DNA from: a virus
DNA length: 64,000 bases
Direction: 5' to 3' (one strand)
Virus genome (UHGV): UHGV-1378817
Shown here: positions 1,857 to 64,000 of the stretch, one piece after another
How positions within the stretch are numbered: position 1 is the first letter of the stretch
Layout of the letters: the number at the start of each line of letters is the position of its first letter
Notes under the pieces: model-generated
What the model was told of the DNA's origin: nothing
The model's database searches: none
What the model saw: only the letters and a program-made list of their open reading frames with translations
Program-made: the position numbers and the translations under genes

Positions 1857-1897
1857 TAATGTATTTTACCACAAAGATACATCAAAAGCAACAATTT

Positions 1898-10750: not shown

Positions 10751-10827
10751 TGGTCTCCACGGAGTGATTCGAACACTCGACCTCCTGATCCCAAATCAGG
10801 CGCTCTACCAAGCTGAGCTACGCGGAG
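10751..10827 (-). tRNA. tRNA-Pro (anticodon UGG)
   Basis: Cloverleaf read by hand: 7-bp acceptor, D arm GCTC/GAGC, anticodon arm CCTGA-TTTGGGA-TCAGG, T loop TTCGAAT, encoded CCA. Confidence 0.8.
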
Positions 10828-10838
10828 TATTTATTATT

Positions 10839-10913
10839 TGGTGGCCCTGGGTGGAATTGAACCACCGTCTGGCGATTATGAGTCGCTTGCTTGAACCTTC
10901 CAGCTACAGGGCC
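10839..10913 (-). tRNA. tRNA-Met or Ile2 (anticodon CAU)
   Basis: Acceptor GGCCCTG/CAGGGCC, anticodon arm GCGA-CTCATAA-TCGC, T loop TTCAATT, encoded CCA. Confidence 0.7.
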
Positions 10914-10914
10914 A

Positions 10915-10990
10915 TGGTGCTGATAGCAGGACTCGAACCTGCAACCTATTGATTACAAATCAATTGCACTACCAATTGTGCTACATCAGC
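10915..10990 (-). tRNA. tRNA-Thr (anticodon UGU)
   Basis: Acceptor GCTGATG, D arm GCAC/GTGC, anticodon arm ATTGA-TTTGTAA-TCAAT, T loop TTCGAGT, CCA. Confidence 0.75.
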
Positions 10991-10995
10991 AAAAA

Positions 10996-11094
10996 GGTGC
11001 TAGGTGATGGAATCGAACCACCTATGTATTCAACGACTACCTCGTCTATTTTCAGGATTAAAAATCCTCGCCCTTGCCAAAGGGCTTACCTAGC
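10996..11094 (-). tRNA. atypical long tRNA-like element (~99 nt; anticodon loop reads UUU with 4-bp stem; long extra arm)
   Basis: Acceptor GCTAGGT/ACCTAGC and canonical T arm GGTGG-TTCGATT-CCATC are clear; anticodon arm and a 30-nt variable region are non-canonical; 3' end ACC not CCA. Confidence 0.35.
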
Positions 11095-11192
11095 TCAGTA
11101 TGTTGACCATGTTGCTAGTCGGCGATGACGACTGTAACATTTGATAATCCGGTTCTGCTTCCGGCTTTCGCTTAATTACAAGGTCAACAATA

Positions 11193-11283
11193 TGGCTGAG
11201 GGTAATGGAATCGAACCATCATCGAGTCATCCTCAACGGGACGGTTTTCAAGACCGCTTGAGCACCATTGCTCCCTACCCTCA
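11193..11283 (-). tRNA. tRNA-Ser (anticodon UGA), type II
   Basis: Acceptor TGAGGGT/ACCCTCA, 3-bp D stem, anticodon arm GCGGT-CTTGAAA-ACCGT, long variable arm, T loop TTCGATT, CCA. Confidence 0.75.
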
Positions 11284-11397
11284 TTTATAAACAATACTGA
11301 TAATGACACTGATTTTCGAGCAGTTAGTGACTAGTATAAACGACGATAAATATCAATGCCATTATCTGTATGATTTATGCATTTAAAACTATAAATT

Positions 11398-11484
11398 TGG
11401 TGGGGAGTGGTGGAGTCGAACCACCCGAGTCGCAATGACAATAGATTTACAGTCTACACCGCTACCTCTACGGGATAACTCCCC
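11398..11484 (-). tRNA. tRNA-Tyr (anticodon GUA), type II
   Basis: Acceptor GGGGAGT/ACTCCCC, anticodon arm GTAGA-CTGTAAA-TCTAT, variable arm, T loop TTCGACT, CCA. Confidence 0.75.
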
Positions 11485-11488
11485 AATT

Positions 11489-11563
11489 TGGCACCCCGTA
11501 CTGGACTCGAACCAGTGTCAACGGCTTAGAAGGCCGCTGCTTTATCCACTAAGCTAACAGGGC
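11489..11563 (-). tRNA. tRNA-Arg (anticodon UCU)
   Basis: Acceptor GCCCTGT/ACGGGGT (two G-U pairs), D arm GCTT/AAGC, anticodon arm GCGGC-CTTCTAA-GCCGT, T arm ACTGG-TTCGAGT-CCAGT, CCA. Confidence 0.7.
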
Positions 11564-13810: not shown

Positions 13811-13947
13811 CCATAGTAAGTAATAAATTTAAAACATGGTACTTAGGATCTAGTATATTCTACATAAGTTAAGTATATGTACTTAGTACCATAAGTACTA
13901 GATCTTTTATTTTTTATTATTTAGTTATTTTAGTTATATTCTTTATG

Positions 13948-14028
13948 TGTCCGTATCACGGACAGTTAGTGTCCGTATTACGGGCAGATGTGTCCGCGTG
14001 ACGGACAGTAGTGTCCGTATCACGGACA
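13948..14028. promoter_or_regulatory. array of four 17-bp palindromic operator-like sites (TGTCCGT-N3-ACGGACA)
   Basis: Sites at 13948-13964, 13970-13986, 13991-14007, 14012-14028; 21-22 bp centre-to-centre; sites 1 and 4 identical. Confidence 0.5.
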
Positions 14029-14103
14029 GTTACTAACCTCTGTTCCATAGCGAACATAAAACATACGAATCCTTATAGTACAGATATTTAAGTTTTTACT
14101 GGT

Positions 14104-53707: not shown

Positions 53708-55021
53708 TAAGTTCTTCTCTTTTCTTTTACCGAGTAATTCGGGTTTTCTGTTCTCTTCGGTTTGAAGGGGTATGGAGATACACCTGAGTGAACAGGGTGA
53801 ACAACCGAACCATTGGCTATGGCATTAGCATGGCGAAGCGGACGGGTGACGAAAGAGGGGCCGGAGGACACCAGTCACTGCCATATGATATATGGGTGAT
53901 AACCTGAAGAGTCTGAATAAGTGTTTAAGTACCAGTCAGAGGAAAAGGTGAATGGTAGCCGAAGGGGGAGGGGGGTTTCTTGTATCTTTAATTTGTATAT
54001 TATGTATACACTTGTAAACCAATATCATCTAGATCTGTTTACCACACAAAGTGGATAGAGACAAATATTACCTATTAAACTTGAATTATTTATAGAAAAT
54101 ACCACAACACCACTTAAGTCTTTGATTTTACACACAAATCTTACAGATATTCAACCTCCATATTTAACATACCTGTAACATATTCCATACTCTACCTGCC
54201 TGATCAATTTCCCCAACTACATCCCTCATATTTCCCCTGTCTGTACTACCCTGCCCCACCGGGAGTCCCGTCATATCTGGCTTTCCAGCAAATATCACAC
54301 CCACAAATATCATGCCTGAAGAGGGTTTCATCCCATAATACCTGCCTTGCCTGAAGAGCGCTTCATACACCACGTAAATTTTTTAATTGACCTCCCCTGC
54401 CCCGCCGGAGAGGTTGGCTTTTCCCACACAGACCTGAAGAGTCAGCCAGAAATATCTGAATAGGCCCAGTTCTACCACGATTTTGACCTGACCTACAGGA
54501 GCGCTGCCAGGCGGACGAAATGGGAATACTTCTCATTCTTATAACAATTCTCAAATATCGAGGCAGTGAGGCAAATTAATAGGCCAGGCCGTTCACACAG
54601 TGGCACAACATTTGCAACCTATCTTGTGGGGGTGAATGAGAATACCTATCATTGTGAGAACCATTATCATTACGGGCAATTTAACATAATACCCATTATG
54701 CGCACCACTGGTGATACATACAGGGATTGATAACACGAGTTACAGTTTACGCATATAACAATCATATTTCTTACTATTTGTGTGGGATATAGTTAGCAGC
54801 CGATAGATTAGATATTGACCTGTGGACTTCCAACCGTCTAGACGTCTAAGCGCCCACACAACAAGGCTTATACATACATTACTGAATGTAAACAGGGCCG
54901 CAAAAATGCTACCATACCAGTTTGTAAATTTTCATGCAGCACTTGACAAAGAGGAGGAAAACTTGTCTGACACAATGTCACACAATATGACACAATAACG
55001 GCTGTTACCATTCCATATCTC

Positions 55022-55077
55022 ACTGTTTACGCATAGACTGTTTACGCCTGGATAGTTTACACCTTGACAGTTTACAC
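55022..55077. repeat. four direct iteron-like repeats with exact 15-bp periodicity (ACTGTTTACGC x2, ATAGTTTACAC, ACAGTTTACAC)
   Basis: Repeat starts at 55022, 55037, 55052, 55067; further copies of the core at 54742-54752 and 55493-55502. Confidence 0.7.
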
Positions 55078-55150
55078 AGATATGATAAGCCATGACATTC
55101 GTTTGCATGAAAACAATTAGCAAGTTAACAATTAACAAGTTAATAATATA

Positions 55151-55303
55151 TGACATAATATAAAAGCAGGGCAACTATTAGAAGATCTATAGTTGCCTTG
55201 CTTGTTATGTCATGATTAACTAAATACAAGGCAACTATGATCTGATTAATAGTTTGCAGACAAACTATCACGGGGGTGATGGTTACTGCTTTTATATTAT
55301 GTC
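55151..55303. repeat. ~150-bp element bounded by perfect 18-bp inverted repeats, containing internal GGCAACTAT palindromes
   Basis: Left arm GACATAATATAAAAGCAG (55152-55169), right arm CTGCTTTTATATTATGTC (55286-55303); inside, GGCAACTAT-N10-ATAGTTGCC. Confidence 0.6.
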
Positions 55304-55946
55304 GCGACTCCGTCGCGCCATGCCATTCGTTTGCATAGTTGCCTTATTGTTACAGATAAAATAATTGTATTGTTAATTATTTCTTATCTTTCTATTAGTC
55401 ATCTAATGATTCCGGTTAGTATAGTAACGTACAGTAAACATTAGACGACTAAATATTTCTATGTTTATGATAACCTATCGTGACAATTCCGGACTGTTTA
55501 CGAAAAATGTTGACACCTGAGCTGATTTATGTTATGCAATTTAAACGAATAATTATTTTATGCAGGTATTGACTATTCCGTTATTCTATGGTTGGAATAA
55601 ATACTTAGCAAGCTATAGAATGGTGAGCGTACGTAAATTCTGAGATTTGTCGGCTATAGTTATACTCGATTTTTCACGTAGAACACGCTTTTTGGTTTGT
55701 GTAAGTGTATGACTTATAAAGATTTTTAGTTGTTGACAAGATATTGAAGATGTGCATCAGGTTAAATTTTGTGCAATAGCTGCATTACGTGCAATTTTGG
55801 AAGGAAAACTGGTAAAAATAGCACCGATACCACACAATGAAAGGTTATGCAATAGCTATTTTATATGTATATTTGTACAGTGTGCAGGATTGATGGCTCG
55901 TCAATTATTCCACTTGCCAGGTAGGGCCGTTTATGGTAGGGGAAGA

Positions 55947-55977
55947 GCAGACAAAAAGAAAGGGGCCTAAGCCCCTT
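55947..55977 (-). terminator. intrinsic terminator closing the minus-strand gene block
   Basis: AGGGGC-ctaa-GCCCCT hairpin followed on minus strand by TCTTTTTGT, about 20 nt after stop of 55996-56415. Confidence 0.6.
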
Positions 55978-55995
55978 GATAATTCAGTTAAAAAA

Positions 55996-56415
55996 TTATA
56001 ATGATTCGTATATTTCAAAAATCCGATTTGCCAGGTCGTTACGGTAGCGGAATTTTTCCTCACGTTTGATCATCAGATCTTTAAAGCCGTATTCTTTAAG
56101 CACTTCATTAACTTTATGGCGGCATACCTTCATATTATCTTGAGCGTCACCAATAAACTTGTTGCTGTGGTGCATTGCTTTAATTTCTTCTTCCAGGACC
56201 AGGGCAACTACCCGTACCGGATCAAGCTGGTAGGCGGTAACATCGATGCGGCATTGTAGACGGCTTTTAACGTCTGCCACCGGATATACTGCAACCTCTT
56301 CCCCGTCAACATTGACAATAATTAGTTTACCATCGATTTCGAATCCTTTCGCCGCCGGACCGTGACAAAAAGCGTTATCAAAGCTATATGCCGGATTATT
56401 AGATTTAATGTTCAT
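55996..56415 (-). CDS. hypothetical protein
   Basis: 139 aa ORF with own promoter and terminator. Confidence 0.45.
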   Translation of the reverse strand: MNIKSNNPAYSFDNAFCHGPAAKGFEIDGKLIIVNVDGEEVAVYPVADVKSRLQCRIDVTAYQLDPVRVVALVLEEEIKAMHHSNKFIGDAQDNMKVCRHKVNEVLKEYGFKDLMIKREEKFRYRNDLANRIFEIYESL

Positions 56416-56464
56416 GGTGTTTTTACCTCTTAGTTAATTTTCTTACAACTTCCCTTCAAAAAAG

Positions 56465-56493
56465 AATATAGCAAAACTGCCGATCCCTGTCAA
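56465..56493 (-). promoter_or_regulatory. sigma70-like promoter (minus strand)
   Basis: On minus strand TTGACA, 17-nt spacer, TATATT; upstream of 55996-56415. Confidence 0.55.
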
Positions 56494-56559
56494 CCAAGGA
56501 TGGCATAATTTTTATGTGATCAAGGGGCTTTATTGCCCCTGACCATGTAACTTGTTGTA

Positions 56560-56823
56560 TTATTTGTTATTCATCCAGTTTTCCCAAGCTGCCTGATAAT
56601 CTGCCTCACTGCGGCGGATCTCTTCTTGCTCTTCAAGCCGGATCTCTTCTTCTAGGTACCCCAAGATATCGGCTTTTTTGGTCTGGCGTAACATCCAATC
56701 ATCTTTTTTACGGGTAAAGATCTTATATGCTTTCTCGCAAACCTCTTTTTTGCTACCTTTTTGGACTTCAAGAACTTTGTAGGCCATGTACTGAACTAGT
56801 TTGAGCTGATCAAGACGTTTCAT
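56560..56823 (-). CDS. hypothetical protein
   Basis: 87 aa charged ORF. Confidence 0.4.
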   Translation of the reverse strand: MKRLDQLKLVQYMAYKVLEVQKGSKKEVCEKAYKIFTRKKDDWMLRQTKKADILGYLEEEIRLEEQEEIRRSEADYQAAWENWMNNK

Positions 56824-56886
56824 GATGTTTACCTCTTTATGGGGTTCTGGTTTGGTGTGGGCCTTTTGGCCCGTGTCATTATCTTA

Positions 56887-57159
56887 TTACTTACGGCGGC
56901 AAAATTCAAGTGTTTTTAATTGATAATCTTCCTCAGCTTGGAGTACAACCGCCTCGATCATTTCGTTGGCATTGGTGAAGCCATACCCTTGAGCGAACTC
57001 ATCCGCGCCACCTTCGTGATCATGTTCTGCGTTCATCGCTTCCACAAAATGGAATTCAAGATTATTGAGGTAAGGGCTTGATGTTCCGTCCTCTTTTTCG
57101 ATGAGATCCCAGATAGCATTAAAACGTGATTCGACTTCTTGATTAATCCAGCTTGACAT
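56887..57159 (-). CDS. hypothetical acidic protein
   Basis: 90 aa ORF. Confidence 0.4.
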   Translation of the reverse strand: MSSWINQEVESRFNAIWDLIEKEDGTSSPYLNNLEFHFVEAMNAEHDHEGGADEFAQGYGFTNANEMIEAVVLQAEEDYQLKTLEFCRRK

Positions 57160-57321
57160 AATGTTTTCCTCTCTTCTGGTTGTTGTGTGGGCACTTTTGC
57201 CCCTTCAAGATAAATGATACCCCCACCACCTGGCAGATGTCAACGGTTTTTATAGTTTTTTATATAACAGGCACCCCCGGTGATTGTCTCCCCCCGTCGC
57301 CAGGTGCCTGCCGTGAAACAA

Positions 57322-57356
57322 GTATAACAAAAAACAGGACCATTGCAAGCCCTGTT
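57322..57356 (-). terminator. intrinsic terminator
   Basis: AACAGGGC-ttgcaatgg-TCCTGTT hairpin followed on minus strand by TTTTTGTTAT, after stop of 57373-57564. Confidence 0.55.
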
Positions 57357-57372
57357 TTGTAGTTTATAAATA

Positions 57373-57564
57373 TTATATTTTTTCGCCTATGTAGTCCGGT
57401 CGGTTTTTCTCTGTCATGCGCTTTAGCAATTCTTGCATGTTGCTTATGGCTTGTAGTGTATCCCCTTCCAGGCTTGAATCGACATAATCAGGATCGTCTA
57501 TGACCTTTCTATGATTATGATAACGCAGTACCGCCAATACCTTTCTAACTTGTTCGATATTCAT
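57373..57564 (-). CDS. hypothetical protein
   Basis: 63 aa ORF. Confidence 0.4.
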   Translation of the reverse strand: MNIEQVRKVLAVLRYHNHRKVIDDPDYVDSSLEGDTLQAISNMQELLKRMTEKNRPDYIGEKI

Positions 57565-57713
57565 TTTTACCGCTCTTTAAAACAAGGTGCCAACCGTTTC
57601 CAATAGATCACTAACTATCAGGACAATACTGATCAGCACATATCTAACCATAAGGGGAAAGAGCGCCAGCGATCCCGCCACAATCCCCAAGGTGATGATT
57701 ATCTTTCTCATGG

Positions 57714-57998
57714 TTAACGGTTTACGTAAGTTTTCCCGTTCACGGTTATGGGCAGATCCTCCAGGTCTGGATCTTCCTTAAGGTCGCGAGCAAGCTCACC
57801 GCACCGGATACCCTCGAATCCGTAGTACTCTGTCGTGCCGTCCTTAAAAGTTTTAGCGGCAAGGCATAAGCGATAAGTAACCCCGATTCGATTGACGGCA
57901 TGAATATCCGTTAGATTAACCTCTTTTGCCAGCTCTTTAGCCATTACAGGCGCATTAAGTCCAACAACCAGGGCAACCACTGCGATCATCTTTTTCAT
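57714..57998 (-). CDS. secreted/periplasmic small protein
   Basis: 94 aa; signal-peptide-like N-terminus MKKMIAVVALVVGLNAPVMA. Confidence 0.45.
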   Translation of the reverse strand: MKKMIAVVALVVGLNAPVMAKELAKEVNLTDIHAVNRIGVTYRLCLAAKTFKDGTTEYYGFEGIRCGELARDLKEDPDLEDLPITVNGKTYVNR

Positions 57999-58089
57999 TG
58001 TGTCTATCCTCTTTCTGCTACGTTTAAGGCGGAGGTAACCGCCTGTTTATGCTTTGTTGGTTAATTTTCGGGTATCGGTATAAATTAAA

Positions 58090-58305
58090 CTATGCTGTAC
58101 GTTCAACTATAACAACGGTTTGGGGGATCTCACCTTCCACCACTAATAAGGCCTTTTTCTGCGTGATGGATATCTTTACCCGTTGCAGCGTGGCGGTGAA
58201 GTCTTTCATTTCGTCACGTGGTGTTTTAGTGCAATACCAGATCTCAGGCTTGCCGATCTGTAAGTTGCGTAAAAATTCCGTTTTGCCTGTTTTGTTAGTG
58301 ATCAT
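58090..58305 (-). CDS. hypothetical protein
   Basis: 71 aa ORF. Confidence 0.4.
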   Translation of the reverse strand: MITNKTGKTEFLRNLQIGKPEIWYCTKTPRDEMKDFTATLQRVKISITQKKALLVVEGEIPQTVVIVERTA

Positions 58306-58314
58306 TTGCCAACC

Positions 58315-58419
58315 TCACCCGATACCGTTGGAAGACAAGATCACATTAGCCATGGTTGCAATCAGGCCAATACCCAGGGCAATAACCAGGATCACCGCAT
58401 CAATTAATTTCTGTTTCAT
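58315..58419 (-). CDS. small membrane peptide (34 aa)
   Basis: MKQKLIDAVILVIALGIGLIATMANVILSSNGIG; below ORF-track cutoff. Confidence 0.3.
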   Translation of the reverse strand: MKQKLIDAVILVIALGIGLIATMANVILSSNGIG

Positions 58420-58496
58420 GGTGTTTATTCTCTTCTGTTAGTAACCTTATTCATGGGGCCGCTACTACAGCCCCAGGGTAAGGCGGCTATGTGCTT

Positions 58497-58742
58497 TTAG
58501 TGTTTCATTCCAACCATCGCGGCACGGATCGCCGTAGTGCTGTACTTGAAGCCGTCCGGGGTCTTATCTTGTCCGGTTAGCTCCAGAAAAAGCATCATAT
58601 CCCGCGCCGCATCATTACGATTAGCATTAGCGTTAATAAAGCCTTGGGCCAACCGGTACAATGACTCATCGTTATTAATCCAAAGGCTTACATTCCAATG
58701 AGTTTTGTTTTTGTAACCGTTATAACCTTTATTGCTTTTCAT
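58497..58742 (-). CDS. hypothetical protein
   Basis: Start set to ATG 58742 (MKSNKGYNGYKNKTHW...) with AGAGGT SD. Confidence 0.4.
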   Translation of the reverse strand: MKSNKGYNGYKNKTHWNVSLWINNDESLYRLAQGFINANANRNDAARDMMLFLELTGQDKTPDGFKYSTTAIRAAMVGMKH

Positions 58743-58833
58743 GGTGTTTACCTCTTCTTTGTTCCAGGTGGCGGACCATTCCACCGCCTTATGTATTATG
58801 CTTTGTTAGATGGTTGTTTGTTGTCAAACTATT

Positions 58834-59013
58834 TTAACGATAATCATCGTACGCTTTATTAACCTGGCGAATATAACATTCAAAAGCCAGATCAATAGAT
58901 TTATATTCACGGATATATTCACCATAGGAAACCACATACATTTCTATAGCTTCCTCATATGCGAGGAGAATAGAATCTAAGCCTACGATCTCAGTCTTTG
59001 CAATAATAGCCAT
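58834..59013 (-). CDS. hypothetical small protein (59 aa)
   Basis: MAIIAKTEIVGLDSILLAYEEAIEMYVVSYGEYIREYKSIDLAFECYIRQVNKAYDDYR; GAGGATAAAAATC-ATG; below ORF-track cutoff. Confidence 0.35.
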   Translation of the reverse strand: MAIIAKTEIVGLDSILLAYEEAIEMYVVSYGEYIREYKSIDLAFECYIRQVNKAYDDYR

Positions 59014-59088
59014 GATTTTTATCCTCTTTGTGGTTGGTGGGGCTTGTTGCCCCCTTTGATTTATATACTACAGTCTTATATGGTCATG

Positions 59089-59322
59089 TCAACTATTTTC
59101 AAAAAATTTTTCTGCTGTAATATTTTTCCCGGTAGGGTTCGCTACTTTCAAAATTTTATCATGCACTGGACGCCCAAAAGAATAAGCGCCGTACACAGTG
59201 CACCAATAATCGCCGTCAGGCTGTACTATTACCGCCGCATAGGGTACGCCTTTTTCGTTTTTGCTGACAAAATAGATCACGTTGCCATTAATAGCCTCGG
59301 CGCGTTTAATTTGTTCCATCAT
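59089..59322 (-). CDS. hypothetical protein
   Basis: 77 aa ORF. Confidence 0.4.
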   Translation of the reverse strand: MMEQIKRAEAINGNVIYFVSKNEKGVPYAAVIVQPDGDYWCTVYGAYSFGRPVHDKILKVANPTGKNITAEKFFENS

Positions 59323-59378
59323 GATGATTTGCCTCTCTTTATTTTCATAATTGGGGGGCCTTTTCGGCCCAGCCAGGT

Positions 59379-59663
59379 TTATTTATTGATAGCGTGCAGC
59401 GGGAAAGGTACGCCAGGTTGATAGATAACTTTTACAACCTCATCAGGACAAAAGAAGTTGCAGAACTCACCGCAATAGGCCTCATCCTCTTTCAACTCTT
59501 CATCAATATACTCAAAAAAGTAGTCGATGCTTGGATAATCTTGCCCTGGGTTATAGTCAACCATTGTCAGGACCAGTTCAAGATCGTTGCGTAGGATATG
59601 CATACCCGCTTTTAAGTATTTTGCTTCCATTTCTACTACATCGCCAGCGGTAACAATAGCCAT
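59379..59663 (-). CDS. hypothetical protein
   Basis: 94 aa ORF; promoter-like TTGCAT/GATAAT plus G-rich hairpin upstream. Confidence 0.4.
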   Translation of the reverse strand: MAIVTAGDVVEMEAKYLKAGMHILRNDLELVLTMVDYNPGQDYPSIDYFFEYIDEELKEDEAYCGEFCNFFCPDEVVKVIYQPGVPFPLHAINK

Positions 59664-59890
59664 GGTTTTAACTCCTATCTATCCGGTTAATGATTGGGGG
59701 CCGCCCCCCTGATGAGTCCTATTATCCATATTGTAGGGCTTGATGCAAGTACTTATTTAAAAAATTTTTTAAGCGCTCCGTATGCCGTTGTAACGCCAAA
59801 ATAATAAAGGCCATGCAACCGCATAGCCTTTATGTGATTATATCGCTGCAGGCCCTGCCAGGGGCCTTATTTTGCATCATTTTACCGGAA

Positions 59891-60199
59891 CTATACAGAG
59901 AAAACATCGTTCACAATAGCGATCACAATGCCGCCCACCTTGTCACGGTCAACAATGCACAAATCACCATAAATCATGTGGTAGTCTGGATGATCTTTCA
60001 CGGAATAGTCAATGAGTGTTTTCTTGTCGTCCAGCTTTGTAACTTCCATTCTCATAACGATATGAGAATCATCAAAGGCATTATTCCGAAAAGTCATAGC
60101 CTGACCACCAGGGCACCCAGTGATCTCAACTTCCACACCGTCTACGATCTGACCATCAAAGAAATAAAGATTATTAGCCGGGATAAACATGTTTATCAC
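59891..60199 (-). CDS. hypothetical protein
   Basis: 102 aa ORF with AAGGAG SD; preceded by conserved 40-bp intergenic element. Confidence 0.4.
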   Translation of the reverse strand: MINMFIPANNLYFFDGQIVDGVEVEITGCPGGQAMTFRNNAFDDSHIVMRMEVTKLDDKKTLIDYSVKDHPDYHMIYGDLCIVDRDKVGGIVIAIVNDVFSV

Positions 60200-60240
60200 T
60201 CCTTGTTAACTGCGTGTTATTTTACCACGATTAAAATTTA

Positions 60241-60280
60241 CTTTACCGATGGCCCTGAAGTCAAGGCCATCTAAAAATAA
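60241..60280. repeat. conserved intergenic element, copy 1 (hairpin GATGGCC...GGCCATC with TTGACT in loop)
   Basis: 37/40 identical to 63961-64000; perfect 7-bp stem GATGGCC/GGCCATC enclosing TTGACTTCAG on minus strand. Confidence 0.6.
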
Positions 60281-60282
60281 AT

Positions 60283-60483
60283 TTACAGGCCTACAATCTC
60301 TTTGATTCGTTTTACTGCTGCCTCAGCGCCTTGGGGGTAGAAATTATGGTAACCGATCACGCGAGTGATACTAATCGCCGTTTGATGATCTTCATAATCG
60401 CCCTTGAAGATTTCTTGACCGTCAATCAGCACGGCAATTTTTTCTTCTTTTTTGAAGTTAATAACGCGGATATTGTTGCTCAT
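60283..60483 (-). CDS. hypothetical protein
   Basis: 66 aa ORF. Confidence 0.4.
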   Translation of the reverse strand: MSNNIRVINFKKEEKIAVLIDGQEIFKGDYEDHQTAISITRVIGYHNFYPQGAEAAVKRIKEIVGL

Positions 60484-60621
60484 TTTGTTTCTCCTTTCTG
60501 GTTTTTGTGTTGGTGGGGATTAGCTCCCCGTTGATTGTCATTATCCACATTCTGGACCGGATTGCAACACCCCGGAAGAAAAATTTTTTAAAAAGATAGG
60601 CCCCATGATCGGGGGCTGTTC

Positions 60622-60741
60622 TTAGTTACTTACTGCGATAAAGTACATCCCTACGCCTAGCAATATTTCAAGGGCGATGATCTCAAGCCATACCATAACC
60701 CGGCGCGCCTTATCGGTGCGGGGCTTATCCTTGGTTGTCAT
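60622..60741 (-). CDS. small membrane peptide (39 aa)
   Basis: MTTKDKPRTDKARRVMVWLEIIALEILLGVGMYFIAVSN; strong SD AGGAGGAAAGGGGGAG; below ORF-track cutoff. Confidence 0.35.
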   Translation of the reverse strand: MTTKDKPRTDKARRVMVWLEIIALEILLGVGMYFIAVSN

Positions 60742-60910
60742 CGTCTCCCCCTTTCCTCCTGGTAGTAGTGACGCGATCTACAATGACCCCCAGGAGTCCT
60801 ATCACGACACACATCACGAGAAAAATTATCTCCGCTGTTGTTCGGTCCATTATTATAAAAGTCCTCAAGATCAGGCCTGAAAATAAAGCTTTCGTTATTG
60901 AATCCATCAC
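60725..60910 (-). CDS. small membrane protein
   Basis: 61 aa with hydrophobic core (IIFLVMCVVIGLLGVIV). Confidence 0.3.
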   Translation of the reverse strand: MMDSITKALFSGLILRTFIIMDRTTAEIIFLVMCVVIGLLGVIVDRVTTTRRKGGDDDNQG

Positions 60911-60960
60911 GCCAGGCGGCTGGCTTCAAATCTTCATTAAAGGGATTAATTAACGTGGTA

Positions 60961-61332
60961 TTATTTAAACGGCTGGCCCACATATTTTCTATTCCTCTCA
61001 AATAGGCGATCCGCCTCAGTTAAACATATCTCATGGGCTTGATCTCTGGTTTTAGCTTCATCAAAAACCTGTTGCGCCAGGCTGCAACGTAGGGAGACTG
61101 GAAGATCACTATAATAGGCGTTGACAAACGTTTGAGCGTCGTACAGGTCTGAAAATACTTTACCCTTTCTATTATCGCCTTTGTCAACAATTGCAAGGAT
61201 AACAAGTACAATAGTTGCAACCACCCCCAGGAAAATAGATATAATAAACCATAAAAAGGCGGATCTACCTATCTTGCCAGCGATCCAGGCGTTGAACAAG
61301 GCAACTACTACAGCCAAAATAATAAATTCCAT
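60961..61332 (-). CDS. membrane protein
   Basis: Start set to ATG 61332 (MEFIILAVVVALF...) with AAAGAGG SD; two hydrophobic segments. Confidence 0.4.
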   Translation of the reverse strand: MEFIILAVVVALFNAWIAGKIGRSAFLWFIISIFLGVVATIVLVILAIVDKGDNRKGKVFSDLYDAQTFVNAYYSDLPVSLRCSLAQQVFDEAKTRDQAHEICLTEADRLFERNRKYVGQPFK

Positions 61333-61396
61333 TCTATGTACCTCTTTTGTAGTTCTGTTTAACAATAAGGCGGCAAATATGCCGCCTGTTACCTGA

Positions 61397-61777
61397 TTAA
61401 AAATTATCGCCGTAAATCTTTCCGCTTTCTACCCATACCACCACGCGAGGCATACTATCCCACACGTCTTGTTTTAGATTGAGCGCGTGCAATTCTTCGG
61501 TGGTGCTCATACCGGGCACGGGCTGATTGTATACTGCAAAACGACCGCCTGCATAATCATAGGCCAGGGTTAAATCACACTGGATCATCTTTTTGATCAT
61601 GGCATTAAGCATGGCGTTAGCCGCATATTGATCACGTTTTAAAGGCAACTCTTTGATTAGTTTGCGATAGTTTTCGATATGGTCGCACACTGTTTCACGA
61701 GGAAGATCTTTCATATCTTCACGGAATGTAACCAGGTTAAACATAACGGTGTCAATAGCCTTGGTAGTGTTTTTCAT
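61397..61777 (-). CDS. hypothetical protein
   Basis: 126 aa ORF; promoter TTGCAA/TATATT and 5' hairpin upstream. Confidence 0.4.
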   Translation of the reverse strand: MKNTTKAIDTVMFNLVTFREDMKDLPRETVCDHIENYRKLIKELPLKRDQYAANAMLNAMIKKMIQCDLTLAYDYAGGRFAVYNQPVPGMSTTEELHALNLKQDVWDSMPRVVVWVESGKIYGDNF

Positions 61778-61867
61778 GATGTTATCCTCTTTGTTTTGTG
61801 TTGGGGCAAACGTCTTGCCCCCTTGAGTTTTAATATAGCAGGTTTTTAGGTTATTGCAACACTTTAT

Positions 61868-62491
61868 TTATGAAAAAGTCATCTCACCATATTCATCGAC
61901 ATCAAACCGCCAATCATTGGCCTCGATAAGGCCGATCAGGTTTTCTGCGGTGAACTGTTCTAGATAGGCCTCCTTCAGGTCTACGTAAACCTTGCGGGAT
62001 AGCTCCCGTACCGTCTCGGTGATCAGTTCTTCCAGGTCTTCCACTTTGTTTTCTTGTTTGGCGGTCAGATCTAGCCAAGTGGTATCAATGTACCCGCTTA
62101 CAGTGTTTTCATGGCTGTAATGGCTGTACTTGTCGCGTTCAACACTGGCTGATAACTCGCCATCGTGCATTGTGCCGAACAAGTGACGAATTGATCGGAA
62201 CTTGGTCAGGGCCTTTACTTTACGCAAAAATTTTTCTAAATCCACGTTTTCAGCACTGATTGACGCGCCGTCACCCTGGCACCAAAAGCCGGACCAATGT
62301 ACTTCGGTATCTTCAAGGCCGTACTCTGGAAAGATATATTCTTTGTAGTGTTCAATTACACTTTCTGCAAAAAAGTTATCCCCGCTGTGTTCTTCTCTTT
62401 CGCGGACCATTTCAATAGCTTTTTCTTTTTGTTCGTCGGTCAGCACGTCGAAAGATAAATTGTAACCTGTGGTAATGTTAACGGTGGTCAT
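61868..62491 (-). CDS. hypothetical protein (207 aa)
   Basis: Largest gene of the block; conserved-looking HWSGFWCQGDGASI motif; own promoter. Confidence 0.45.
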   Translation of the reverse strand: MTTVNITTGYNLSFDVLTDEQKEKAIEMVREREEHSGDNFFAESVIEHYKEYIFPEYGLEDTEVHWSGFWCQGDGASISAENVDLEKFLRKVKALTKFRSIRHLFGTMHDGELSASVERDKYSHYSHENTVSGYIDTTWLDLTAKQENKVEDLEELITETVRELSRKVYVDLKEAYLEQFTAENLIGLIEANDWRFDVDEYGEMTFS

Positions 62492-62548
62492 GATATTTTC
62501 TCCTATTTTCTTTGTTAGTGGCGGGAAAACTTCCCGCCTGTGTGCTTA

Positions 62549-62576
62549 AGTATACTTATTGAGATTTACTTGTCAA
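62549..62576 (-). promoter_or_regulatory. sigma70-like promoter (minus strand) with 5' leader hairpin
   Basis: On minus strand TTGACA, 16-nt spacer, TATACT, then GGCGGGAA-gttt-TCCCGCC hairpin before SD. Confidence 0.55.
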
Positions 62577-62826
62577 CACTATTTTTTAAATTATTGTGGC
62601 GTAAAATATTCAAGATCTCTTCAACGTCATCAACACGGCGGCAATTTTTAAACGCTACCAATTGCCCCAGGATTTTAATCACTGGACGGCCTTGCCAGTG
62701 CCCTTGGAGAAAGCGCGCTTTAACTTTATCGGTGGAACTATCACGCCACCAAATAGCCTTGTTGTTGCAGTAGTAAAAATTATTCAGGATAACATCAACT
62801 TTATCAAAATTTTTTAATTTACGCAT
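62566..62826 (-). CDS. hypothetical protein
   Basis: 86 aa basic ORF. Confidence 0.4.
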   Translation of the reverse strand: MRKLKNFDKVDVILNNFYYCNNKAIWWRDSSTDKVKARFLQGHWQGRPVIKILGQLVAFKNCRRVDDVEEILNILRHNNLKNSVDK

Positions 62827-62858
62827 GGCGTTTACTCCTTTCTCTCTTTGATGTGGTT

Positions 62859-62886
62859 AGTATAGCTAACCTGTTGACGATGTCAA
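62859..62886 (-). promoter_or_regulatory. sigma70-like promoter (minus strand)
   Basis: On minus strand TTGACA, 16-nt spacer, TATACT; upstream of 62566-62826. Confidence 0.55.
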
Positions 62887-63002
62887 TGATATTTTTAACG
62901 CCATGAAACGGCCCTGGGCGATGTTTTCAGGTTAAAGGGGGCGATTGCATAGGTGGGGCCTTTTTGGCGCTTACAGGGCCAACCAGGGGCGCTATTCGTA
63001 GG

Positions 63003-63036
63003 ATAGAAATAAAAAGCCCCGCACAATGGCGGGGCG
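63003..63036 (-). terminator. intrinsic terminator
   Basis: GCCCCGC-acaatg-GCGGGGC hairpin followed on minus strand by TTTTTATTTC, just after stop of 63044-63265. Confidence 0.65.
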
Positions 63037-63043
63037 TTGGTTG

Positions 63044-63265
63044 TTATTTGCCTTTGTGGCGGTATCGTTCCGCCTGTCGTTCACGTTCCAAAAGCAGGCC
63101 CGGTAATTTGCGATCATAATGATTCCGCCAGATCTTCCCAAATCTTTTTGGCTTATTCAGTTTATTGTTGCGCTGGCGGCGTTCCGGCAGCTCTTCGGAA
63201 GCATGAGATCGCTTTACAATCTTCTCAAAATTAATCTTCATATATTCCCCCCTTGCTAACTTCAA
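63044..63265 (-). CDS. hypothetical basic protein
   Basis: 73 aa, Arg/Lys-rich. Confidence 0.35.
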   Translation of the reverse strand: MKLARGEYMKINFEKIVKRSHASEELPERRQRNNKLNKPKRFGKIWRNHYDRKLPGLLLERERQAERYRHKGK

Positions 63266-63584
63266 TATTGGCCTGAATAGCCCGGATACGGCGCTTTATA
63301 ACTTCCTGATCTGTGTGATCGTATCCCCAAAAGTCTACGATTTTTGCGCCTCCAGCCTTTAGGCGGTATAGTGTTTCTTGCATCTTGTAAGCCGGGATCG
63401 GTCGCGGTGTTACCTGGTCGCCCTTCTCATTCTTGTACTTGATAATGTAGTCTTCATTGTCGTTGAATACCCAAAATGGGTATTCTGTGAGCGCGTTGCT
63501 CTCTTTTTCGTTTTTAGATTGGATCTTGTTTACAATTAAAGCCGTAGCAATAGCGCCAATAATAAAACTTGCCCCGCTGATCAT
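63231..63584 (-). CDS. membrane-anchored hypothetical protein
   Basis: Start set to ATG 63584 (MISGASFIIGAIATALIV...) with AAGGAG SD. Confidence 0.4.
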   Translation of the reverse strand: MISGASFIIGAIATALIVNKIQSKNEKESNALTEYPFWVFNDNEDYIIKYKNEKGDQVTPRPIPAYKMQETLYRLKAGGAKIVDFWGYDHTDQEVIKRRIRAIQANIEVSKGGIYED

Positions 63585-63659
63585 GTACTTTCTCCTTTCA
63601 TTGTGTTGATAAACTGTCTTTATAGATGGCCCTGCTACCAGGACCACCGAAAAAACAGC

Positions 63660-63905
63660 TTATTTGACGATACCGACAAAACAGATCCCGCCTTCCCCTA
63701 TATAGGCAATATCGGTAATTTTATAATTTGTCAAGATCCGCGTGTTCAGATCATTAATAAAATCGGTCATCGCGTTGGTGTAGTTGTCTTCCGTGTCTAA
63801 GGCATAATCCCAGGTGTAAACCTTTTTACGTCCGAAGCCTTTTACCATGATACGGGCGCTTTTGGTGTTGGTAGGGGCATAATATTTAGTGATTAGTGCT
63901 GCCAT
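63660..63905 (-). CDS. hypothetical protein
   Basis: 81 aa ORF preceded by copy 2 of the conserved intergenic element. Confidence 0.4.
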   Translation of the reverse strand: MAALITKYYAPTNTKSARIMVKGFGRKKVYTWDYALDTEDNYTNAMTDFINDLNTRILTNYKITDIAYIGEGGICFVGIVK

Positions 63906-63960
63906 GGTTTTAACTCCTATGCATTAGTTCAGTGTTAACAGTATAAAGTTTACTTTATTG

Positions 63961-64000
63961 ATGGCCCTAAAGTCAAGGCCATCTAAAAATAATCTTACTC
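63961..64000. repeat. conserved intergenic element, copy 2
   Basis: 37/40 identical to 60241-60280, including GATGGCC/GGCCATC hairpin and TTGACT. Confidence 0.6.

What the first reader, a model, noticed from the sequence alone, without database searches (positions are those of the whole stretch)
60221..60280. Conserved ~40-50 bp intergenic element present twice (60241-60280 and 63961-64000), a hairpin enclosing a TTGACT box
The two copies are 37/40 identical, with further similarity in the preceding 20 nt. Each has a perfect 7-bp stem GATGGCC/GGCCATC whose loop carries TTGACT in the sense of the downstream minus-strand gene, preceded by a T-run. Placing a -35-like hexamer inside a hairpin suggests a structure-gated promoter, a binding site for a phage factor, or a processing site.
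Basis: seen in the sequence. Interest (0 to 1): 0.55.

Follow-up and report, generated by a model that had tools for sequence, protein, structure and literature searches.

The report
Promoter-plus-hairpin repeat cassette in rV5-like phage
The repeat is a small family of intergenic cassettes in an rV5-like coliphage that combine a likely early promoter with an RNA hairpin and act as crossover points for losing or swapping small genes, much like the "PeSL" cassettes known from T4-like phages.

Summary
GATGGCCTTGACTTYAGGGCCATC occurs twice on the minus strand (0 expected by chance). The window is a Vequintavirus (rV5-like phage).

The family has four direct copies within about 4.4 kb of the early block of small genes:
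- B, C and D lie in the window. C is diverged.
- A lies about 630 nt beyond the window's end.

Each copy starts at the upstream gene's stop codon. Each folds, in the sense RNA only, into a 51-nt hairpin: an 11-bp A/U helix, an internal loop, a 10-bp helix and a tetraloop. The fold is kept by G·U and compensatory changes.

Copies A, B and D also carry an AT-rich tract followed by TTGAC(N)-N18-TAAAYT, a plausible sigma-70 promoter. Copy C has lost both boxes but keeps the hairpin.

Recombination between A and B deleted the two genes between them at least three separate times. One cassette, bounded by a -35 box and by this element's -10 box, moved into a phi92-like phage.

Closest known: PeSL promoter/stem-loop cassettes of T4-like phages. 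This is a sequence-unrelated analogue in another phage subfamily. The "structure-gated promoter" reading is not supported, and the hairpin's RNA role is unresolved: an RNase III-type processing or stabilising site, or an attenuator. Moderate interest.

The parts
60232..60287 (-). Copy D, whole element (alignment columns 1-56). It runs from the stop codon of the 66-aa gene (TAA, 60285-60283) through the -10 hexamer.
   Evidence: Conserved at 83-96% in 121 phage records.
60234..60284 (-). Copy D RNA hairpin, 51 nt. Lower helix 60284-60274 with 60244-60234; upper helix 60271-60262 with 60257-60248; tetraloop 60261-60258.
   Evidence: Sense RNA -23.8 kcal/mol, z=-7.3; antisense -14.8. Pair counts.
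60235..60264 (-). Copy D sigma-70-like promoter: TTGACT (60264-60259), 18-nt spacer, TAAATT (60240-60235). The AT-rich tract AAATTTATTTTT lies at 60284-60273.
   Evidence: Promoter scan. PhagePromoter annotation of the orthologue in phage Gotham.
60218..60227 (-). TGGTAAAATA, 7 nt downstream of copy D's -10 hexamer. It reads as an extended -10 and equals the late-like motif reported for rV5. It may be a second promoter for the 99-aa gene.
   Evidence: two exact copies in the window. Motif TggTAaAAtA in PMC3606486.
59891..60190 (-). 99-aa gene downstream of copy D (phrog_7366, function unknown).
60283..60483 (-). 66-aa gene upstream of copy D. Its stop codon lies in the base of the hairpin.
63944..63999 (-). 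Copy B, whole element. The stop codon of the upstream 342-nt gene (which runs off the window) is at 63997-63995. Hairpin 63996-63946; TTGACT 63976-63971; TAAACT 63952-63947.
   Evidence: sense -18.6 kcal/mol, z=-5.2.
63660..63905 (-). 81-aa gene flanked by copies B and C (phrog_3199, function unknown).
63609..63664 (-). Copy C, a diverged copy with no promoter boxes. Hairpin 63661-63611 (upper helix 63648-63639 with 63634-63625; loop GUAG 63638-63635). CTGGTA replaces the -35 box and ACAGTT replaces the -10 box.
   Evidence: sense -27.7 kcal/mol, z=-7.4; antisense -11.5. No promoter-like site is called here.
63044..63584 (-). 117-aa and 65-aa genes downstream of copy C. No promoter-like site precedes them, so they are presumably transcribed through the C hairpin.
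63016..63035 (-). Canonical intrinsic terminator (GCCCCGC...GCGGGGC followed by TTTTTATTT) that closes the B-to-65-aa transcription unit. It contrasts with the element's hairpin, which has no U-tract.

Best explanation
The element is a composite regulatory cassette of the PeSL type (promoter-early stem-loop). About 56 nt begin at the stop codon of the upstream gene and do three jobs.

1. In DNA, three of the four copies (A, B, D) form a sigma-70 early promoter: an AT-rich UP-like tract, TTGAC(N), an 18-nt spacer and TAAAYT. It drives the next small gene. This step is inferred from sequence and comparative evidence.

2. In RNA, transcripts reading through from upstream fold the same sequence into a 51-nt two-helix hairpin placed right after the stop codon. 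Selection for the fold is shown. Its role is inferred: an intercistronic 3'-end structure that either is cut by RNase III to leave a protective 3' hairpin, or partly attenuates read-through. It is not a full terminator.

3. Because the copies are near-identical direct repeats, they and their promoter boxes serve as crossover points for homologous recombination. That recombination deletes, converts or exchanges the small gene cassettes between them. This step is shown.
For: Family and context:
- There are four direct copies within about 4.4 kb of the block of small unknown-function genes, and none elsewhere in the 64-kb window.
- About 3 BLAST places per genome are found in 121 records.
- The flanking genes are unrelated.

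RNA fold:
- 97.2% of cells are paired, against 35-56% in slid controls.
- The upper helix is 100% paired. Four of its pairs vary, and only through G.U.
- Four lower-helix pairs show compensatory double changes.
- Sense RNA folds at -18.5 to -27 kcal/mol against -8 to -17 for antisense. Copy C is 98% paired in sense and 78% in antisense.

Promoter:
- The scanner calls TTGACT-18-TAAAYT at both intact window copies.
- TTGAC is invariant in every intact A, B and D copy sampled (one divergent metagenome copy A reads TTGAT), while the next base takes all four values.
- HMD-6 copy D has a 1-nt deletion and a 1-nt insertion that together keep the 18-nt spacer.
- Copy C lost the -35 and -10 boxes together.
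- In phi92-like phages the same TAAACT plus leader is served by TTGACA-N16 or TTGCAA-N16.

Recombination:
- A-left/B-right chimeras with loss of the 572 bp between A and B occur in IMG/VR contig L010, ECP32 and ime; magaca matches the junction in a single BLAST piece and so appears to carry the same deletion.
- Each is closest to a different undeleted genome. ime is 100% identical to EdH4 on both flanks.
- Minority loop variants are shared between copies within a genome (4 pairs against 1.25 expected, p=0.02).
- The cassette in KKE7M is bounded by a -35 box and by this element's -10 box.

Not a full terminator:
- There is no U-tract.
- Copy C sits inside a unit with no downstream promoter, and that unit ends at a canonical terminator.

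The anatomy matches published PeSLs (PMC2839356; PMC4122927).
Against: - No transcription start, processing site or termination has been measured for any Vequintavirus. No transcriptome was found.
- The promoter is only a 9/12 consensus match with a slightly long spacer. The rV5 reference annotation does not list it.
- Part of the conservation of TTG is explained by the stem alone.
- Sequences are closely related (about 90-95% identical). The covariation therefore rests on few independent events, mostly the split between copy C and the others plus five haplotypes of copy C.
- Other indels in the same block do not end at this element, so it is one route to rearrangement among several.
- Two aberrant copies break the pattern and may be assembly errors: Gotham copy A lacks GGGCC, and C9 copy D lacks the -10 region.
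Confidence: 0.65

Rival explanations
1. The hairpin is specifically an RNase III processing signal of the T7 early-region type. Read-through polycistronic RNA would be cut once in the internal loop. That would leave the upstream cistron with a protective 3' hairpin and would separate the cassettes. This is a sub-mechanism compatible with the best explanation.
For: - The shape fits: 21 bp in two coaxial helices (about two helical turns), split by an asymmetric 2x3 internal loop, placed between cistrons directly after a stop codon.
- PMC1540722 states that E. coli RNase III substrates typically span two helical turns. It also states that internal loops restrict cleavage to one bond, which yields protective 3' hairpins.
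- Copy C sits inside an operon, where processing makes more sense than termination.
Against: - The proximal-box and distal-box sequence rules were not evaluated.
- The lower helix is weak (A/U-rich), and in A, B and D it could partly be a by-product of the AT-rich tract and the -10 region.
- There are no cleavage data.
- Only four sites exist per genome, whereas most neighbouring intergenic hairpins are plain GC stems.
Confidence: 0.3
2. The element is simply a rho-independent terminator, as annotated in phage Murica, and the TTGACT inside it is incidental.
For: - Murica's record marks 45-nt 'terminator' features at copies C and D.
- The stable hairpin lies immediately after a stop codon.
- PeSL stem-loops reduced downstream reporter expression in RB49 (PMC2839356).
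Against: - No U-tract follows either helix; the 3' flank is A-rich. The terminator scan does not call it, although it calls a canonical terminator 600 nt away.
- The two genes downstream of copy C have no promoter-like site of their own.
- TTGAC, the 18-nt spacer and TAAAYT are conserved together and lost together.
- The same -10 box serves ordinary promoters in phi92-like phages.
Confidence: 0.1
3. DNA-level reading. The inverted repeat would be an operator for a dimeric phage or host DNA-binding protein. Alternatively it would be an extruded hairpin that gates the promoter (the first reader's idea, comparable to N4 virion-RNA-polymerase hairpin promoters).
For: - GATGGCC/GGCCATC is a perfect palindrome spanning the -35 box and the spacer in copies A, B and D.
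- That position is typical of repressor operators.
Against: - Pairing beyond the 7 bp, and all variation in copy C, is kept by G.U pairs. These are mismatches in duplex-symmetric or cruciform DNA and on the other strand (84.6% Watson-Crick against 97.2% RNA pairs).
- Copy C keeps the structure without any promoter.
- The lower helix covaries.
Confidence: 0.08
4. The repeat has no function of its own. It would be a neutral remnant of old duplications that happens to recombine.
For: The family is small (four copies) and restricted to one lineage.
Against: - There is strand-specific compensatory variation.
- All four copies are placed precisely at a stop codon.
- The element is retained in almost all of the 121 genomes.
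- It was retained intact on transfer to another subfamily.
Confidence: 0.05

Closest known systems
PeSL (promoter-early stem-loop) cassettes of T4-like phages RB49/phi1, PST/T4 and nt-1/KVP40 (Arbiol et al. 2010, PMC2839356; Comeau et al. 2014, PMC4122927)
   Same: - It starts at the upstream stop codon in an AT-rich tract.
- It has a sigma-70-like -35 and -10 pair.
- Its stem-loop can overlap the -35 box and contains G.T pairs.
- It is followed by an SD and an ATG.
- It is clustered in a region rich in small genes of unknown function.
- Recombination between neighbouring direct copies deletes the intervening ORFs.
- Degraded forms occur that keep the stem-loop but have lost promoter boxes, like copy C.
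   Different: - The host phage is a Vequintavirus, not a T4-like phage, and there is no sequence similarity to published PeSL consensus stems (G-run, loop, C-run).
- This is a tight family of only four near-identical copies, not dozens of loosely similar ones.
- The hairpin is a two-helix structure of 21 bp in total with an internal loop, and it shows covariation specific to the sense RNA.
- Promoter activity, terminator activity and mini-circles have not been tested here.
RNase III processing signals of the phage T7 early region (for example R1.1; Pertzev and Nicholson 2006, PMC1540722)
   Same: An intercistronic hairpin of about two helical turns, interrupted by an asymmetric internal loop, in a phage early operon. 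In T7, single cleavage leaves a protective 3' hairpin.
   Different: There is no sequence similarity, the box rules were not checked and no cleavage is shown. T7 sites do not enclose a host-type promoter within the hairpin.
Rho-independent (intrinsic) terminators
   Same: A stable GC-rich hairpin directly after a stop codon. It is annotated as a terminator in the Murica record.
   Different: It lacks the 3' U-tract. A U-run precedes the hairpin and an A-run follows it on both strands. One copy lies inside an operon.
Sigma-70 promoters with an UP element (general knowledge of E. coli promoters; T4 and RB49 early promoters)
   Same: TTGAC(N), an 18-nt spacer, TAAAYT (T, A and final T present), and an upstream AAATTTATTTTT tract resembling the distal UP subsite (recalled from general knowledge, not checked against a paper here).
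   Different: The -10 box matches only 4 of 6 positions, the spacer is 1 nt longer than optimal, and activity is untested.

Membership tests
PeSL-type composite promoter/stem-loop cassette | Intergenic, beginning at the stop codon of the upstream gene within an AT-rich tract, and ending before the SD and ATG of the next gene | tested here: met
   The stop codon falls at alignment columns 3-6 in all four copies. SD and ATG lie 35-55 nt downstream.
PeSL-type composite promoter/stem-loop cassette | A sigma-70-like -35 and -10 pair at promoter spacing | tested here: met
   TTGACT-N18-TAAAYT, 9/12 matches, in copies B and D and in copy A of relatives. Copy C lacks both boxes, like the degraded PeSLs in PMC4122927. 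This is sequence evidence only.
PeSL-type composite promoter/stem-loop cassette | A stable stem-loop adjacent to or overlapping the promoter boxes | tested here: met
   The 10-bp upper helix encloses the -35 box, and the 11-bp lower helix pairs the AT-rich tract with the -10 region. z = -5.2 to -7.4.
PeSL-type composite promoter/stem-loop cassette | Repeated copies concentrated in a variable region rich in small genes of unknown function | tested here: met
   Four copies within 4.4 kb of the early block, and none elsewhere in the 64-kb window.
PeSL-type composite promoter/stem-loop cassette | Indels or replacements between close relatives whose end points lie in the copies | tested here: met
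   The A x B deletion of 572 bp was junction-mapped in three lineages (IMG/VR contig L010, ECP32, ime); a fourth, magaca, matches the junction in one BLAST piece. The KKE7M cassette junction lies at the -10 box. Other indels nearby do not use the element.
PeSL-type composite promoter/stem-loop cassette | Demonstrated promoter and attenuator activity; formation of mini-circles | not testable with these tools
   This needs reporter assays and inverse PCR, as in PMC2839356.
PeSL-type composite promoter/stem-loop cassette | Occurs in T4-like phages and resembles their PeSL consensus stems | tested here: not met
   The window is a Vequintavirus and the stem GATGGCC/GGCCATC is unrelated to a G-run/C-run stem. 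It is therefore an analogue, not a homologue.
Intrinsic terminator | A GC-rich hairpin immediately followed by a U-tract | tested here: not met
   The hairpin is present, but the 3' flank is AAUAAAG or GGUAAAG. The terminator scan does not call it, though it finds a canonical terminator at 63035-63016.
E. coli RNase III substrate (T7 R1.1 type) | About two helical turns of duplex with an internal loop that restricts cleavage to one bond | tested here: met
   11 + 10 bp with a 2x3 internal loop. Criteria taken from PMC1540722.
E. coli RNase III substrate (T7 R1.1 type) | Permissive proximal-box and distal-box base pairs, and actual cleavage | not tested
   The box positions depend on the unknown cleavage site. 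In vitro cleavage or a comparison with an rnc mutant is needed.
Any Rfam RNA family | A covariance-model match at or near the gathering score | tested here: not met
   There are only two chance-level hits (24 and 30 bits against gathering scores of 80 and 94) in 55000-64000.

The most novel reading that the evidence does not exclude
The hairpin would be a structure-specific recombination site and not merely a patch of homology. On this reading, a phage or host enzyme recognises the folded single strand, as an integron integrase recognises attC. It would then excise and insert promoter-equipped gene cassettes, which would explain the recurrent A x B excisions and the precise transfer into a phi92-like phage. 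The same 51 nt would thus encode a promoter, an RNA processing signal and a cassette attachment site.
Probability: 0.05. Interest if true: 0.8.

Novelty: new member of a known kind. Interest (0 to 1): 0.4.

Why it matters
- **Reach of the mechanism.** Cassette shuffling mediated by promoter/stem-loop elements has been described only in T4-like phages. Here it appears in an unrelated myovirus subfamily (Vequintavirinae), with recurrent deletions and one documented exchange into a different subfamily (Justusliebigvirus). That exchange has both junctions inside promoter boxes.
- **Annotation.** The same element is called "terminator" in one GenBank record, "promoter" in another, and is left unmarked in the reference genome. 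This analysis explains why.
- **Dual coding.** The same bases are constrained as promoter DNA and as an RNA helix.
- **Practical use.** rV5-like phages are used for therapy and biocontrol. These elements mark natural sites that tolerate cassette insertion or deletion.

Tried and rejected
- **Gene duplication as the source of the repeat.** Rejected. The downstream and upstream proteins are unrelated and belong to different PHROG families.
- **A genome-wide or widespread repeat.** Rejected. There are only 3 copies in the 64-kb window and 4 per genome. True copies occur only in Vequintavirus contigs, plus one Justusliebigvirus.
- **The 15-base pattern AGGGCCATCNATAAAG.** It was too loose. The viral scan and the single metagenome scan returned almost only chance matches, and only L041/L052/L163 and L200 were real. 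The metagenome scan was effectively wasted.
- **A known RNA family.** There is no Rfam match.
- **Alternative -10 choices.**
  - TAAAGT gives a 13-nt spacer, which is too short.
  - TATACT in copy B gives a 25-nt spacer.
  - TGGTAAAAT downstream of copy D is a possible extra promoter for that copy only.
- **Whether all indels in the block end at the element.** They do not. The two rV5_ev146 deletions and the extra 351-nt gene of Murica, EdH4 and ECP32 have other end points.
- **Literature.** No Vequintavirus transcriptome was found, and no report of PeSLs outside T4-like phages. The rV5 genome paper does not mention the repeat.

Full report
**1. The observation**

The pattern GATGGCCTTGACTTYAGGGCCATC occurs exactly twice in the window, at 60248-60271 and 63960-63983. 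Both are on the minus strand, and none is expected by chance. The 37/40 identity is right once the copies are put in register (60240-60279 with 63952-63991). All genes in this part of the window run on the minus strand.

Each copy begins at the stop codon of an upstream gene and ends 35-55 nt before the SD and ATG of the next gene. The proteins on either side of the copies are unrelated and belong to different PHROG families of unknown function. The repeat is therefore not a by-product of gene duplication.

**2. Source and family size**

The window is a Vequintavirus, an rV5-like E. coli myovirus of about 137 kb. It is 94-95% identical to phages A51.2, EdH4, Gotham and others.

A repeat search and a profile search both found a third, diverged copy at 63609-63663 (64% identity). 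Relatives carry a fourth copy about 630 nt beyond the window's end.

I call the copies A, B, C and D in the direction of transcription.

| Copy | Window coordinates | Status |
|---|---|---|
| A | beyond the window's end | seen in relatives only |
| B | 63944-63999 | intact |
| C | 63609-63664 | diverged, no promoter boxes |
| D | 60232-60287 | intact |

The four copies are direct repeats within about 4.4 kb of the early block of small genes. BLAST finds about 3 places per genome in 121 phage records.

Looser pattern scans of viral and metagenome collections found true copies only in Vequintavirus-type contigs. One copy also occurs in the Justusliebigvirus KKE7M.

**3. Structure**

Folding shows more than a 7-bp stem. 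There is a 10-bp upper helix (GAUGGCCUUG/CAGGGCCAUC, with a U.G pair) closed by a tetraloop. A 2x3 internal loop follows, then an 11-bp A/U-rich lower helix that pairs the upstream T-run with AAAGUAAAYUU.

I made a gapless alignment of 31 distinct copies from 15 genomes and counted pairs on it:
- 97.2% of cells form standard pairs, against 35-56% when the partners are slid by 1-3 columns.
- The upper helix is 100% paired. Four of its pairs vary, and only through G.U.
- Four lower-helix pairs show changes on both sides.

Copy C alone has five haplotypes of its lower helix: CUGU/ACAG, CUGU/AUAG, UUAU/AUAA, UUGU/AUAA and UUAU/AUAG. All of them pair.

The pairing is strand-specific:

| Measure | Sense RNA | Antisense RNA |
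|---|---|---|
| Cells paired, all copies | 97% | 85% |
| Cells paired, copy C | 98% | 78% |
| Folding energy across the 31 aligned copies (kcal/mol) | -18.5 to -27 | -8 to -17 |
| z-scores, window copies D, B, C | -7.3, -5.2, -7.4 | -4.9, -2.8, -2.7 |

As a DNA cruciform (Watson-Crick pairs only), 84.6% of cells pair. The selected structure is therefore an RNA hairpin in the gene sense. It is not a DNA cruciform and not a symmetric protein-binding site.

The sequences are closely related, so these counts rest on few independent events. The slid controls and the strand asymmetry do not depend on that.

No Rfam family matches.

**4. Promoter**

Copies A, B and D carry TTGAC(N), an 18-nt spacer and TAAAYT. 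An AT-rich tract (AAATTTATTTTT in copy D) precedes them. From my own knowledge of E. coli promoters, and not checked against a paper here, this tract resembles the distal UP-element subsite.

- The consensus scanner calls both window copies promoter-like, with 9/12 matches.
- PhagePromoter predictions are annotated at the orthologous sites in phage Gotham.
- TTGAC is invariant in every intact A, B and D copy sampled (one divergent metagenome copy A reads TTGAT). The sixth base takes all four values and the next loop base varies. The two loop bases A and C are thus conserved only where they belong to the -35 box.
- Copy C has lost the -35 box (CTGGTA) and the -10 box (ACAGTT or ATAATT) together, yet it keeps the hairpin.
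- In HMD-6 copy D, a 1-nt deletion in the loop is matched by a 1-nt insertion after the stem, which preserves the 18-nt spacer.

The strongest support comes from phi92-like phages. At one locus, the same -10 box (TAAACT) and the same leader are served by three different upstream halves:
- TTGACA-N16 in phage muut;
- TTGCAA-N16 in phage UAB_1;
- this element's TTGACT-N18 in phage KKE7M.

Promoter activity itself has not been tested. The rV5 reference annotation does not list these sites, and the rV5 genome paper does not mention the repeat.

**5. What the hairpin is not**

It has no U-tract. The 3' flank is A-rich, and on both strands a T-run precedes the hairpin while an A-run follows it. The terminator scan does not call it.

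Copy C lies inside a transcription unit. In order, that unit runs:
1. the promoter in copy B;
2. the 81-aa gene;
3. the C hairpin;
4. the 117-aa and 65-aa genes, with no promoter-like site before them;
5. a canonical terminator at 63035-63016 (a GC stem followed by TTTTTATTT);
6. a strong TTGACA-16-TATACT promoter.

A full terminator at copy C would silence two genes. The Murica record nevertheless labels copies C and D as "terminator".

Transcripts started at the embedded promoter begin downstream of the hairpin. Only read-through RNA from upstream contains it.

**6. What the hairpin may be**

[quoted passage not shown] It has about two helical turns, split by an internal loop, and it sits between cistrons. 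In such substrates an internal loop limits cleavage to one bond, and the remaining 3' hairpin protects the upstream RNA (PMC1540722).

I rate this at about 0.3, and partial attenuation as the main alternative. Neither can be decided from sequence.

**7. Recombination**

*Deletions between copies A and B.* Three genomes carry a single chimeric copy with A's left flank and B's right flank: IMG/VR contig L010, ECP32 and ime. They lack the 572 bp, and the two small genes, between A and B. In L010 the two homology blocks overlap by exactly the 49-nt element. Phage magaca matches the junction query in a single BLAST piece and so appears to carry the same deletion; its flanks were not examined.

The three deletion genomes whose flanks were compared are each closest to a different undeleted genome:
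- ime is 100% identical to EdH4 over 400 nt on both sides.
- L010 is closest to L200 and JES2013.
- ECP32 is closest to rV5.

They are distant from one another, so the event has recurred.

*Gene conversion.* Minority loop variants tend to be shared by different copies within one genome (4 pairs against 1.25 expected, p about 0.02 on a small sample). This suggests gene conversion between copies.

*Transfer into a phi92-like phage.* KKE7M, a phi92-like phage of another subfamily, carries a 474-bp Vequintavirus segment at 93% identity.
- The segment starts exactly at the -35 box (TTGACA) of the promoter annotated as P192 in rV5.
- It ends exactly at the -10 box (TAAATT) of copy B.
- It is inserted inside the resident promoter seen in muut. 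That promoter is itself about 82% identical to P192.

Both junctions thus lie in promoter boxes.

*Limits.* Other indels in the block do not use this element.

**8. Comparison with known systems**

The closest known kind is the PeSL, the promoter-early stem-loop of T4-like phages. A PeSL has a stop codon in an AT-rich tract and a sigma-70 promoter. Its stem-loop may overlap the -35 box and contains G.T pairs. PeSLs cluster in variable regions, and recombination between copies deletes or exchanges ORFs. Degraded forms keep only the stem-loop (PMC2839356; PMC4122927).

All sequence-testable features are met here. Reporter activity and mini-circles could not be tested. The host lineage and the stem sequence differ, so this is an analogue in a new phage group and not a homologue.

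I found no report of such elements outside T4-like phages and no Vequintavirus transcriptome.

**9. Verdict**

The "structure-gated promoter" part is not supported. The processing-site option remains open.

The element is a new member of a known kind of phage regulatory and recombination cassette. Interest is moderate (0.4). The recurrent deletions and the inter-subfamily cassette transfer with promoter-box junctions are the most useful results.

Noticed in passing
window 13947-14032: Four head-to-tail 21-22-nt units, each a small palindrome (GTGTCCGTATCACGGACAGTTA; 8-bp stem, 3-nt loop). They lie in an AT-rich intergenic region between minus-strand genes. This could be an array of protein-binding sites or stacked hairpins. 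Unexplained.
   Followed up: partly
window 10751-11563, minus strand: A cluster of seven tRNA genes (Pro, Met, Thr, Ser, Tyr, Arg). The seventh is a 99-nt tRNA-like gene at 10996-11094 for which ARAGORN reports a four-base anticodon (atcc).
   Followed up: partly
window 60218-60227 and 1862-1871, minus strand: Exact TGGTAAAATA. This equals the 'TggTAaAAtA' motif that the rV5 genome paper found upstream of late genes and compared with T4 late promoters (PMC3606486). One copy lies 7 nt downstream of copy D's -10 hexamer. There are 16 matches with at most 1 mismatch in the window, against 6.6 expected.
   Followed up: partly
window 55900-63050, minus-strand intergenic regions (for example 61859-61803, 62576-62510, 59092-59039): The usual layout of the other intergenic regions is a sigma-70-like promoter, then a short GC-rich hairpin without a U-tract, then a C/A-rich stretch, then SD and ATG. 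The hairpin would thus sit at the 5' end of the transcript, possibly as a leader that stabilises the mRNA. EdH4 and Murica annotate several of these hairpins as terminators.
   Followed up: no
window 56818-56837, 58737-58756, 61772-61791: A near-identical 20-nt stretch covering the ribosome-binding site and start codon (AAGAGGTAAACATCATGAAA on the gene strand) is shared by three unrelated small genes (family D6).
   Followed up: no
L004 3835-3862 (rV5 promoter P192) and L207 about 1472-1499 (phage muut): A Vequintavirus promoter and a Justusliebigvirus promoter are about 82% identical over 28 nt (TTGACAAGCTAACTTAAATCAGTATAAT against TTGACAAGATAACTAAAATCAGTAAACT). This gave the left crossover for the KKE7M cassette.
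   Followed up: yes
L001 7095-7140 (Gotham copy A); L018 6001-6048 (C9 copy D): Two aberrant copies. Gotham copy A lacks GGGCC of the right arm, which removes the hairpin and leaves a 13-nt spacer. C9 copy D lacks the AATAAAGTAAAT segment that includes the -10 box. These are either decayed copies or assembly errors at a hairpin; C9 is an UNVERIFIED record.
   Followed up: no
Phage records MG0656xx: About 17-21 records named 'Campylobacter phage' with host C. jejuni are about 94% identical to E. coli Vequintaviruses. They are classified as Vequintavirus in their own taxonomy lines, so the host label is doubtful.
   Followed up: no
L017 (rV5_ev146) against L004 (rV5): rV5_ev146 lacks about 0.5 kb (ORF194, copy A and the start of ORF193) and about 5.5 kb (from within ORF189 to upstream of ORF168, including copy D). 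The end points are not at copies of the element.
   Followed up: partly
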